Assembly: GCF_041886205.1 (NCBI RefSeq) | Contig: NZ_CP169029.1 | Reading direction: 5' to 3' (one strand) | Length of the DNA: 64,000 nt | Origin: Escherichia coli | GTDB lineage: Bacteria > Pseudomonadota > Gammaproteobacteria > Enterobacterales > Enterobacteriaceae | Shown here: piece by piece, positions 27,352 to 27,847 of the stretch | Position numbering within the stretch: the stretch's first letter is position 1 | Layout of the letters: every line of letters begins with the position of its first letter | Program-made: the position numbers and the translations under genes | Notes under the pieces: generated by a model | The model's input: only the letters and a program-made list of their open reading frames with translations | What the model was told of the DNA's origin: nothing | Database searches by the model: none

Positions 27352-27802
27352 AATATGCCGCCCCAAAGGGCGGCATTCGGGCTTACCTGCTGTTCTGAAG
27401 GTTGTTAACCACCAGTAAATTGTTGCCGGAGAGACTCAGGTTATTATTTACCTCGGTTAACAGCGCACCAGAAACAATAAGTACGATACAAAAGCACCGT
27501 ATCTTCATTGTGCGGTCCATGCGAAGACCGCATCACGACAGCACCACTGGCGATATTGCCGCGATAGCAAGCGCTGTGAAACACCTGCATTTACGGCCAC
27601 GGAACATCCTTTCCTAAAGCCAGCGCCCGTTTGCGAGACGGCGGAAAGGGCCGGTGTCGATAATACGCTAAATAAACAATAATTACTCTCTTTTGCTTGA
27701 CAAAAAGAGAGTTGCTGGCGAATATTGCTCTGCTGTGAAGCACCTGCGTTGCTCATGCAACACAAGTCAACCTGCTGGAAAGGCCGCGAACCAGACCAGC
27801 AA

Positions 27803-27833
27803 TAAAAAACCGCCAAATTCGGCGGTTTTTTAT
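27803..27833. terminator. Bidirectional intrinsic terminator at the sseA 3' end
   Basis: Perfect hairpin aaaaaccgcc-aaattc-ggcggttttt flanked by an A-run and a T-run, 15 nt downstream of the sseA stop on the minus strand. Confidence 0.65.
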
Positions 27834-27847
27834 TGCCTGTAAAATAC

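What the first reader, a model, noticed from the sequence alone, without database searches (positions are those of the whole stretch)
27352..27847. Unusually long (~500 bp) convergent intergenic region between sseB and sseA with hairpins and promoter-like elements: sRNA candidate (RyfA-like)
Convergent gene ends rarely need 500 bp. The region contains a perfect hairpin right after sseB (atgccgccc-caaa-gggcggcat, 27356-27377), a perfect 10-bp-arm hairpin (actctctttt-gcttgaca-aaaagagagt, 27685-27712) whose loop and arm contain TTGACA, and a bidirectional terminator at 27803-27833. The only ORFs are short, low-complexity six-frame products. This architecture fits a structured non-coding RNA. I recall, without being able to verify it, that the sRNA RyfA maps near sseB/sseA in E. 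coli and that the homologous Salmonella locus encodes a small toxic protein with its antisense regulator.
Basis: inference. Interest (0 to 1): 0.45.

Follow-up and report, generated by a model that had tools for sequence, protein, structure and literature searches.

The report
Known timP/timR (ryfA) toxin–antitoxin locus
The long gap between sseB and sseA holds the already described E. coli ryfA/timP small-toxin mRNA and its divergent repressor sRNA TimR, so the finding is real but ordinary.

Summary
The sseB–sseA spacer is 496 bp (27352–27847) and all three hairpins exist. Nearly all of it belongs to one published system.

- **timP/ryfA mRNA:** minus strand 27654→27350, a full-length Rfam RF00126 match (313.8 bits, cut-off 80).
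- **TimP toxin:** the mRNA carries a 41-aa ORF at 27508→27383 (NCBIfam NF040796, 77.7 bits, cut-off 45). RefSeq annotates it as timP.
- **TimR/RyfB sRNA:** plus strand, about 27732–27834, with a conserved TTGACA-N17-GAATAT promoter.
- **Pairing:** the TimR 5' end pairs over 20 contiguous bp with the timP 5'UTR stem-loop SL2. None of 500 shuffles reaches this length.
- **Conservation:** five other enterobacterial genera keep the complementarity while the sequences change.

The hairpin after sseB is the timP terminator. The "bidirectional terminator" ends both TimR and sseA. The 10-bp palindrome is not RNA. It lies in the untranscribed divergent-promoter spacer and carries the TimR −35 box.

The mechanism is inferred from Salmonella work: TimR blocks TimP translation. 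E. coli groups also report peptide-independent RyfA functions.

Novelty: already known.

One side observation is that this strain has a minority haplotype (about 5% of E. coli genomes) with a single cognate TimR. K-12 carries an additional non-cognate copy.

The parts
27350..27654 (-). timP (formerly ryfA) mRNA, about 303-305 nt. The TSS is probably at 27652.
   Evidence: Rfam RF00126 matches model positions 1-296 of 296 at 313.8 bits. The MFE is -123.8 kcal/mol with z = -5.0 against shuffles. TSS 27652 is inferred because it makes the ORF start +145 and places site 2 at C57/C58/G59, as in the Salmonella numbering (PMC7667032, PMC13000454).
27383..27508 (-). TimP coding sequence, 41 aa: MKIRCFCIVLIVSGALLTEVNNNLSLSGNNLLVVNNLQNSR
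   Evidence: RefSeq annotates this CDS as 'small toxic inner membrane protein TimP' in the 100%-identical strain LHM10-1. NCBIfam NF040796 scores 77.7 bits against a cut-off of 45. The N-terminus is hydrophobic, with a Kyte-Doolittle mean of 2.86 for residues 5-17. The ORF is conserved in 15 other enterobacterial loci. An in-frame upstream ATG at 27520 would give the 45-aa form used in the UPEC paper.
27355..27376 (-).
   Evidence: The stem has 9 bp, 7 of them G-C, and is followed on the minus strand by ATTTTAGATT. It forms the 3' end of the Rfam ryfA model. On the plus strand no T-run follows it.
27609..27648 (-). SL1 of the timP 5'UTR. It contains pseudoknot site 1, CGCUGGC, at 27619-27625.
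   Evidence: The Rfam consensus structure is aligned without non-canonical pairs. The 7-bp complement to SL3 was located. The pseudoknot was shown to be essential in Salmonella (PMC11228461).
27572..27591 (-). TimR-binding site in SL2 of the timP 5'UTR (mRNA nt 64-83 in Rfam numbering)
   Evidence: It forms 20 contiguous base pairs (17 Watson-Crick and 3 G.U) with plus-strand 27731-27750. None of 500 shuffles reaches 20; the maximum was 16.
27545..27551 (-). Pseudoknot site 3 (GCCAGUG) in the SL3 loop
   Evidence: It is complementary over 7 bp to CGCUGGC in SL1. This matches the 7-bp SL1-SL3 pseudoknot of PMC11228461.
27592..27598 (-). Site 2 (GGCCGUA), complementary to the 5' flank of SL4 (site 4, 27526-27532)
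   Evidence: A 7-bp run including G.U pairs was found. It corresponds to the site 2-4 interaction that frees the Shine-Dalgarno sequence in Salmonella (PMC13000454).
27512..27531 (-). SL4, which sequesters the Shine-Dalgarno region just upstream of the TimP AUG
   Evidence: The stem GCGGUC/GACCGC appears in both the Rfam consensus structure and the MFE fold. The start codon lies at 27508.
27660..27665 (-). Probable -10 box of the timP promoter (TATTAT)
   Evidence: This is read directly from the sequence. It lies 7 nt upstream of the inferred TSS at 27652. Inference only; the -35 box is weak.
27685..27712 (.). Perfect 10-bp-arm palindrome in the untranscribed divergent-promoter spacer. Its loop and right arm carry the TimR -35 box.
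   Evidence: It lies between the inferred TSSs at 27652 (-) and about 27732 (+). It is identical in E. coli modules of types A, B and C. It is imperfect in E. whittamii, replaced in two other Escherichia promoter variants (E. coli SCPM-O-B-8794, Escherichia sp. E1V33) and absent in the other genera, with no compensatory changes.
27697..27725 (+). TimR promoter: -35 TTGACA (27697-27702), 17-nt spacer, -10 GAATAT (27720-27725)
   Evidence: The consensus scan scores 10 of 12 in the adjacent N18/AATATT register. TTGAC[A/T]-N17-xAxTAT is conserved in all 14 TimR loci from 6 genera.
27732..27834 (+). TimR (RyfB-type) antitoxin sRNA, about 100 nt
   Evidence: It has a variable 5' seed, a small hairpin at 27748-27761, an invariant core hairpin at 27773-27801 (CUGCUGGAAAGGCCGCGAACCAGACCAGC) and a terminator. 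The MFE is -36.4 kcal/mol with z = -4.3. The alignment of 12 homologues gives 26 consensus pairs, 6 of them with compensatory changes. About 100-nt RyfB transcripts were seen by RNA-seq in Shigella (PMC5333039). TimR was detected by northern blot in E. coli CFT073 and by expression assays in CH138 (PMC13188913).
27731..27750 (+). TimR seed (UGCUGUGAAGCACCUGCGUU)
   Evidence: Across 14 loci the cognate seed/site duplexes average -42.2 kcal/mol and the non-cognate ones -27.6 kcal/mol.
27799..27836 (.). Bidirectional intrinsic terminator. It ends TimR on the plus strand and sseA on the minus strand.
   Evidence: Inverted repeat I1. It forms the terminal hairpin of the TimR fold and shows compensatory changes in homologues. 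The sseA stop codon is at 27848-27850.

Best explanation
The spacer is the E. coli copy of the enterobacterial timP-timR locus, a type I toxin-antitoxin-like module. The older names are ryfA-ryfB.

**Layout.**
- The minus strand gives a highly structured mRNA of about 303 nt (27652/4 -> 27350). Its 3' half encodes the 41-aa hydrophobic inner-membrane protein TimP.
- The plus strand starts about 80 bp away at a back-to-back promoter. It gives the TimR sRNA of about 100 nt (~27732-27834).

**Mechanism.**
- The single-stranded 5' end of TimR pairs with stem-loop SL2 of the timP 5'UTR.
- In Salmonella this pairing disrupts the SL1-SL3 pseudoknot. It prevents the structural switch (site 2-4 pairing) that frees the Shine-Dalgarno sequence from SL4.
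- TimP is therefore made only when TimR is depleted.

**Shown here:** family membership of both RNAs and of the protein; presence of every sequence element of the switch; non-random TimR/timP complementarity that covaries across species.

**Inferred from Salmonella experiments:** translation repression, membrane toxicity and the structural switch itself.
For: - **timP mRNA.** Rfam ryfA matches full length at 313.8 bits.
- **Annotation.** RefSeq annotates timP in the identical strain and in K-12.
- **Distribution.** The region gives a match in 5425 of 5426 complete E. coli genomes.
- **Protein.** The TimP HMM scores 77.7 bits against a cut-off of 45.
- **Pairing.** There are 20 contiguous bp between the TimR 5' end and timP SL2, and 0 of 500 shuffles reach this.
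- **Switch elements.** The pseudoknot (7 bp), site 2-4 (7 bp) and SL4/SD elements are all present.
- **Other species.** All 15 enterobacterial loci recovered have ryfA. Twelve of them have a divergent TimR 63-81 nt upstream, with a conserved promoter, core and terminator and species-specific seeds that stay complementary. Cognate duplexes average -42.2 and non-cognate -27.6 kcal/mol.
- **Experiments in the literature.** PMC7667032 shows toxicity, TimR repression and compensatory mutants. PMC11228461 shows the pseudoknot. PMC13000454 shows the structural switch and that Salmonella TimP is toxic when expressed in E. coli. PMC5333039 shows that RyfB1 lowers RyfA1 levels specifically.
Against: - No expression data are available for this strain. 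Both TSSs are inferred (timP by homology with Salmonella numbering, TimR from the conserved promoter).
- For E. coli alleles the TimP peptide has not been detected. ryfA alleles with the ORF disrupted still complement UPEC delta-ryfA phenotypes (PMC8205139).
- Deleting timR has little effect in APEC (PMC13188913).
- In Shigella no protein was detected from ryfA1 (PMC5333039).
- The TimR/timP duplex here contains 3 G.U pairs.
Confidence: 0.92

Rival explanations
1. In E. coli the 300-nt RNA works mainly as a trans-acting regulatory sRNA (RyfA) controlling stress, fimbriae and virulence genes. TimR is its RNA partner or sponge, and the TimP ORF is incidental or rarely used. This reading does not exclude the toxin-antitoxin reading, because the RNA could have both functions.
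For: - ORF-disrupting ryfA alleles fully complement UPEC delta-ryfA phenotypes (PMC8205139, read).
- In APEC, delta-ryfA is attenuated while the delta-ryfA delta-timR double mutant is close to wild type (PMC13188913).
- RyfA1 overproduction lowers ompC in Shigella (PMC5333039).
Against: - The ORF is conserved as protein across at least 6 genera with an invariant M-K...C-I...V-G N-terminus, and it matches a curated protein HMM.
- Every element of the translation switch is conserved. That would be unnecessary for a purely non-coding RNA.
- Ribosome profiling in E. coli indicated translation (mia-62, cited in PMC7667032).
Confidence: 0.3
2. The 10-bp-arm palindrome (27685-27712) is a functional element in its own right. 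It could be an operator for a dimeric regulator acting on both divergent promoters. Alternatively it could be a back-up terminator for minus-strand read-through from sseA.
For: - It is a perfect palindrome not expected by chance.
- It is centred on the TimR -35 box and abuts the timP -35 region.
- It is identical in E. coli module types A, B and C even though the adjacent seeds diverge.
- On the minus strand it scores as terminator-like, with a stem followed by AATTATTGTT.
- The natural signal that induces TimP is unknown (PMC7667032).
Against: - It is not conserved outside Escherichia.
- E. whittamii and one E. coli module carry arm mismatches without compensation, and two other Escherichia promoter variants (E. 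coli SCPM-O-B-8794, Escherichia sp. E1V33) lack it.
- The arms are low-complexity (CT and A runs).
- No regulator is known, and no further copy exists in the 64-kb window.
Confidence: 0.12
3. The spacer is non-functional filler made only of terminators and REP-like palindromes between convergent genes.
For: It lies between convergent genes and contains two terminator hairpins.
Against: About 410 of the 496 bp are accounted for by two conserved genes. No direct-repeat families were found.
Confidence: 0.01

Closest known systems
Salmonella enterica timP-timR (ryfA / STnc2070), Andresen et al. 2020; Eleftheraki & Holmqvist 2024; Eleftheraki et al. 2026
   Same: - It belongs to the same Rfam family and the same TimP protein family, and has the same divergent gene arrangement.
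- TimR's 5' end pairs with SL2 of the 5'UTR.
- It has the 7-bp SL1-SL3 pseudoknot, the site 2-4 complementarity, the SD sequestered in SL4, and the ORF starting at +145.
   Different: - E. coli TimP is 41 aa, against 38 aa in Salmonella.
- The duplex here is 20 bp with 3 G.U pairs, against 18 contiguous bp.
- No STM2534-like gene lies between timR and sseA.
- Toxicity and repression have not been shown for this allele.
Shigella dysenteriae ryfA1/ryfB1 and ryfA2/ryfB2 (Fris et al. 2017)
   Same: It has the same locus and the same RNAs. The window's timP 5'UTR is identical to the K-12 allele over the first 150 nt except for the first two bases. It differs from the other common E. coli 5'UTR allele mainly in the SL2 TimR-binding site. 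This is consistent with the 'variable region' that Fris et al. use to separate RyfA1 from RyfA2. I did not align the Shigella sequences, so assigning the window to RyfA2/RyfB2 is an inference.
   Different: S. dysenteriae has two complete tandem modules. The window has one complete module. K-12-like strains have one timP and two timR copies.
Divergently encoded type I TA pairs of E. coli: tisB-istR1, shoB-ohsC, zorO-orzO, dinQ-agrB
   Same: In all of them a small hydrophobic membrane toxin mRNA with a long structured 5'UTR is repressed by a short, adjacent, divergently transcribed sRNA through a limited stretch of complementarity. TimR gives sub-threshold Rfam matches to AgrB (31 bits, cut-off 40) and OhsC (26 bits, cut-off 50).
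   Different: timP mRNA needs no nucleolytic processing to become translatable; it uses a purely structural switch (PMC11228461). The Rfam matches are below the gathering scores, so TimR is not a member of those families.

Membership tests
Rfam RF00126 ryfA (= timP mRNA) | Covariance-model score at or above the gathering threshold over the full model | tested here: met
   313.8 bits against 80, model positions 1-296 of 296, E = 2e-86
Rfam RF00126 ryfA (= timP mRNA) | Location next to sseB, with sseA on the other side, in Escherichia | tested here: met
   The ORFs and RefSeq annotation show sseB - timP - sseA
TimP small toxic inner membrane protein (NCBIfam NF040796) | HMM score above the curated cut-off, with the ORF at about +145 of the mRNA | tested here: met
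   77.7 bits against 45. The AUG is at mRNA nt 147 in Rfam numbering, which is +145 from TSS 27652.
TimP small toxic inner membrane protein (NCBIfam NF040796) | N-terminal hydrophobic Sec-type signal/anchor | tested here: met
   The Kyte-Doolittle mean is 2.86 for residues 5-17 and -0.48 for the rest. No signal-peptide predictor was run.
TimP small toxic inner membrane protein (NCBIfam NF040796) | Growth inhibition and membrane leakage on overexpression | not testable with these tools
   Shown for the Salmonella protein, including when it is expressed in E. coli (PMC7667032, PMC13000454). Not shown for this allele.
timP translational switch (Holmqvist lab model) | 7-bp SL1-SL3 pseudoknot | tested here: met
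   CGCUGGC (27625..27619) pairs with GCCAGUG (27551..27545)
timP translational switch (Holmqvist lab model) | SD sequestered in SL4, and site 2 complementary to the 5' flank of SL4 | tested here: met
   SL4 appears in the Rfam consensus structure and in the MFE fold. GGCCGUA pairs with UGCGGUC over a 7-bp run. Formation of these structures in vivo was not tested.
TimR / RyfB antitoxin sRNA | Encoded directly upstream of timP on the opposite strand, without overlap | tested here: met
   The seed starts 76 nt from the first base of the Rfam ryfA match (27654). Homologues lie 63-81 nt away.
TimR / RyfB antitoxin sRNA | 5' region complementary to the SL2 region of the cognate timP 5'UTR | tested here: met
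   20 contiguous bp, reached by 0 of 500 shuffles. The cognate duplex is the best, or tied best, in 10 of 14 rows of the cross-species matrix.
TimR / RyfB antitoxin sRNA | Followed by an intrinsic terminator, with a length of about 100 nt | tested here: met
   Terminator at 27799-27836. The predicted length is about 100 nt.
TimR / RyfB antitoxin sRNA | Represses TimP translation by base pairing | not testable with these tools
   Shown with compensatory mutants and in vitro translation in Salmonella (PMC7667032)
TimR / RyfB antitoxin sRNA | Membership of a curated Rfam family | tested here: not met
   No family reaches its gathering score over 27655-27847. The best matches are AgrB at 31 bits (cut-off 40) and OhsC at 26 bits (cut-off 50). 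Rfam 15 appears to have no TimR model.

The most novel reading that the evidence does not exclude
E. coli carries at least two mutually poorly cross-pairing TimR-seed / timP-SL2 specificity classes, here called A and B. They are consistent with RyfB1/RyfA1 and RyfB2/RyfA2 of Shigella, though I did not align the Shigella sequences. Rarer seed variants also exist. About a third of genomes, including K-12, keep an extra non-cognate 'orphan' A-type TimR between a B-type timP and its cognate B-type TimR. The window represents a rare resolved haplotype (about 5% of genomes) in which the orphan copy is absent. Orphan or mismatched TimR copies might act on other targets. That could explain why TimR alone is deleterious in delta-ryfA E. 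coli. The conserved promoter palindrome could be the missing regulatory input. The haplotype counts are observed here; any functional consequence is speculation.
Probability: 0.2. Interest if true: 0.35.

Novelty: already known. Interest (0 to 1): 0.1.

Why it matters
It matters little as a discovery. The locus has been in Rfam, in RefSeq annotation and in several papers since 2001, 2017 and 2020.

Its practical value is for annotation. The 496-bp 'empty' convergent spacer should be labelled as timP (a coding mRNA) plus timR. TimR has no Rfam model and is not annotated in RefSeq records.

The within-species seed and target-site allele structure could help the groups that disagree on whether E. 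coli RyfA acts as a toxin mRNA or as an sRNA. Their strains may carry different TimR complements: a single A-type copy, a single B-type copy, or an A+B tandem.

Tried and rejected
1. **Genome-collection scan.** The pattern GCGGTCNNNGCANNGACCGCAC was too unspecific. Only 15 of the 120 loci were enterobacterial, and Salmonella was missed. Those 15 were still usable.
2. **Long-sequence duplexfold.** RNA.duplexfold on whole long sequences gave an uninformative global duplex. I replaced it with contiguous-run searches and restricted seed/site duplexes.
3. **First intergenic anchors.** My regular-expression anchors were too strict. I redid the extraction with annotated coordinates.
4. **Rfam model for TimR.** The E-value-mode scan found only sub-threshold hits, mostly driven by the terminator.
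5. **Promoter/terminator scan.** It missed the TimR terminator on the plus strand because the A6/T6 flanks were absorbed into the stem. I confirmed the terminator by folding and by the inverted-repeat search instead.
6. **Other ORFs.** I considered a 49-codon TTG ORF (27693-27842 +) and a 16-codon ATG ORF inside TimR. I rejected both. The first starts upstream of the TimR TSS. Neither survives the indels and ATG loss seen in A-type TimR.
7. **Literature search for regulators.** A search for regulators of the timR/timP promoters found nothing beyond the papers already read.

Full report
**Observation.** The window is E. coli. The 601 bp around the finding are 100% identical to strain LHM10-1, and 5425 of 5426 complete E. 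coli genomes give a match to the region. sseB ends at 27351 and sseA, on the minus strand, ends at 27848. The convergent spacer is therefore 27352-27847, 496 bp, as reported. All three hairpins are real.
- The perfect 10-bp-arm palindrome ACTCTCTTTT-N8-AAAAGAGAGT lies at 27685-27712.
- A 19-nt-arm palindromic terminator lies at 27799-27836.

The 10-bp palindrome is not a chance event. No shuffle of the 64-kb window gives a match even with three mismatches allowed.

**What it is: the minus strand.** A gathering-threshold Rfam scan of the whole window places a full-length ryfA (RF00126) match at 27654..27350 on the minus strand. It scores 313.8 bits against a threshold of 80, with E = 2e-86 and only one non-canonical pair flagged, in a minor hairpin of the 3' part. 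The RNA folds far better than shuffles (-123.8 kcal/mol, z = -5.0). RefSeq annotates a CDS, 'small toxic inner membrane protein TimP', at window 27383-27508 (-) in the identical strain and in K-12. The 41-aa product MKIRCFCIVLIVSGALLTEVNNNLSLSGNNLLVVNNLQNSR matches NCBIfam NF040796 at 77.7 bits against a cut-off of 45. It has a hydrophobic N-terminal half. The hairpin 'right after sseB' is the timP terminator. It is followed by a U-run on the minus strand only, and it forms the 3' end of the Rfam model.

**What it is: the plus strand.** The remaining 190 bp hold a second gene. A promoter, TTGACA (27697-27702)-N17-GAATAT (27720-27725), is followed from 27731 by UGCUGUGAAGCACCUGCGUU. This sequence pairs over 20 contiguous positions (17 Watson-Crick and 3 G.U) with timP mRNA nt 64-83 (window 27591..27572). 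In 500 dinucleotide shuffles the longest run averaged 10.7 and never exceeded 16. Downstream come a small hairpin, a hairpin CUGCUGG-AAAGGCCGCGAACCAGA-CCAGC (27773-27801) and the terminator. The 102-nt RNA folds with z = -4.3. This matches the published definition of TimR (formerly STnc2070; RyfB in Shigella). That definition describes a divergent, non-overlapping sRNA whose 5' region is complementary to the timP 5'UTR and which is followed by an intrinsic terminator (PMC7667032; PMC5333039). Rfam has no model that reaches threshold here. Only sub-threshold resemblances to the type I antitoxin sRNAs AgrB and OhsC appear.

**Independent comparative test.** A collection scan was poorly specific (see the tried-and-rejected section) but still yielded 15 enterobacterial loci. 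All 15 contain ryfA by Rfam. In 12 of them a TimR-like gene lies 63-81 nt upstream of timP on the opposite strand. With the window and one further E. coli allele these make 14 loci from 6 genera (Escherichia, Citrobacter, Superficieibacter, Yersinia, Rahnella, Erwinia). The features found are:
- a conserved TTGAC[A/T]-N17-xAxTAT promoter;
- an invariant GCUGGAAAGGCCGC core;
- a terminator with compensatory changes;
- a 5' seed that differs between species yet stays complementary to the local timP SL2.

Cognate seed/site duplexes average -42.2 kcal/mol and non-cognate ones -27.6 kcal/mol. The cognate partner is the best, or tied best, in 10 of 14 rows. This intermolecular covariation is the strongest in-silico evidence that the pairing is selected. 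The TimP ORF is conserved in all loci, with invariant M1, K2, C7, I8, V12 and G14.

**How it most likely works.** The mechanism is inferred from Salmonella experiments.
- TimP overexpression permeabilises the inner membrane.
- TimR represses TimP translation by base pairing, shown with compensatory mutants and in vitro translation (PMC7667032).
- The unprocessed timP mRNA is translated only in a conformation that has an SL1-SL3 pseudoknot, and TimR binding to SL2 disrupts that pseudoknot (PMC11228461).
- A site 2-site 4 interaction frees the Shine-Dalgarno sequence from SL4 (PMC13000454).

Every one of these elements is present in the window:
- the pseudoknot CGCUGGC (27625..27619) with GCCAGUG (27551..27545);
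- site 2 GGCCGUA (27598..27592) with site 4 UGCGGUC (27532..27526);
- SL4 with the SD just upstream of the AUG at 27508.

Placing the TSS at 27652 reproduces the Salmonella numbering exactly (ORF at +145; C57, C58, G59). That is why I infer this TSS.

**The 10-bp palindrome.** It lies between the two inferred TSSs, so it belongs to neither RNA. It is part of the back-to-back promoter region and contains the TimR -35 box. It is identical in the E. coli module types A, B and C that I examined. It is imperfect in E. whittamii and in one E. coli module, with no compensatory changes. It is replaced in two other Escherichia promoter variants (E. coli SCPM-O-B-8794, Escherichia sp. E1V33) and absent in the other genera. 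An operator or read-through-terminator role cannot be excluded, but I found no evidence for one.

**The rival view.** E. coli and Shigella groups treat RyfA as a regulatory sRNA.
- ORF-disrupting alleles complement UPEC delta-ryfA phenotypes (PMC8205139).
- An APEC delta-ryfA mutant is attenuated while the delta-ryfA delta-timR double mutant is not (PMC13188913).
- No peptide was detected in Shigella (PMC5333039).

These results are compatible with a dual-function RNA and do not contradict the anatomy found here. They do mean that TimP toxicity is unproven for E. coli alleles.

**Side observation: haplotypes.** The spacer is polymorphic within E. coli.
- K-12 has an 817-bp spacer with two tandem TimR modules. 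The proximal 'A-type' has the seed CCGCUGAGACGCGCUUGCAUUAC. The distal 'B-type' resembles the window's.
- The K-12 timP SL2 site is B-type. It pairs over 20 bp with the distal copy and only 11 contiguous bp with the proximal copy.
- Single-module A-type strains carry a matching A-type SL2 site with a 17-bp run.
- The window's promoter spacer 27639-27712 is identical (0 mismatches in 74 nt) to K-12's distal repeat and differs at 8 positions from the proximal one. The window therefore looks like a K-12-type locus lacking the proximal module.

Among the 5,426 genomes the BLAST counts are as follows.

| Feature | Genomes |
|---|---|
| A-type TimR | 4,540 |
| B-type TimR | 2,104 |
| K-12 inter-module spacer | 1,853 |
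| B-type timP 5'UTR | about 1,985 |
| A-like timP 5'UTR | about 3,334 |

By arithmetic on these counts, the single-B arrangement of the window occurs in roughly 250-300 genomes, about 5%. The A/B distinction is consistent with the RyfA1/RyfA2 'variable region' and RyfB1/RyfB2 already described, including specificity of RyfB1 for RyfA1 (PMC5333039). I did not align the Shigella sequences. I saw further seed variants in single genomes.

**Verdict.** The feature is an already known, annotated system. Interest is low. The only modestly new material is the population-level haplotype picture and the promoter palindrome of unknown significance.

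Noticed in passing
window 27639-27834 compared with L002 (K-12) 1553-2369 and L003: K-12-like strains have an 817-bp spacer with two tandem TimR modules. The proximal one is A-type and non-cognate for the B-type timP. The distal one is B-type and cognate. They are separated by about 130 bp of AT-rich DNA and a 17-nt copy of the timP 5' end. The window has only the B module, and its promoter spacer is identical to K-12's distal repeat.
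   Followed up: yes
E. coli genome collection: Counts among 5,426 genomes: A-type TimR 4,540; B-type TimR 2,104; tandem-specific spacer 1,853; B-type timP 5'UTR about 1,985; A-like about 3,334. The window's single-B haplotype is in about 5% of genomes, and its exact allele (at least 99% identity) is in only 7.
   Followed up: partly
L006 (P276M) module at intergenic offset 284; L007 (RM14516) module at offset 621; L005, L022, L062: Further TimR seed variants exist: 'C' (ACCGCTTCGAGACAGCAC...), 'D' (GAGTAGACGAGATACACTTGCAG...) and a CACUGUGGGGUG type that pairs with a GCAGGCACCCCACAGCG timP site. In P276M timP is not annotated and sseB is frameshifted.
   Followed up: no
window 27753-27834 (+): The 3' two-thirds of TimR give sub-threshold Rfam matches to two other divergently encoded type I antitoxin sRNAs: AgrB (31 bits, cut-off 40) and OhsC (26 bits, cut-off 50). 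These may reflect shared hairpin-plus-terminator architecture rather than homology.
   Followed up: no
window 27457-27466 and 27571-27580 (-): A 10-nt, 90% complementary long-range inverted repeat lies within timP mRNA. It links the 3' half of the TimR-binding site (UUCACAGCGC) to GCGCUGUUAA inside the TimP coding region. It could be part of an alternative (inactive) conformation.
   Followed up: no
L075 (Yersinia similis) 4361-4467; L120 (Y. aleksiciae); L084 (Citrobacter amalonaticus): These three ryfA loci have shorter ryfA matches and no TimR-like gene at the usual position. In Y. similis the Rfam sRNA Ysr224 lies immediately upstream on the same strand as ryfA.
   Followed up: no
window 19984-20093 (+) and 45332-45423 (+): Two other known RNA elements reach Rfam gathering scores in the window: the iscRS stability element (132 bits) and sroE (117 bits).
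   Followed up: no
window 26433-26560: The pepB-sseB spacer contains REP-like palindromic sequence (gccggatgcggcgtaaacgccttatccggcctac...aggcctgataag). It looks like ordinary REP/BIME material.
   Followed up: no
window 27533-27607 (-): A 24-codon uORF in the timP 5'UTR (AUG at mRNA nt 48) overlaps the TimR site. The Salmonella counterpart was shown not to be needed for translation (PMC11228461).
   Followed up: no
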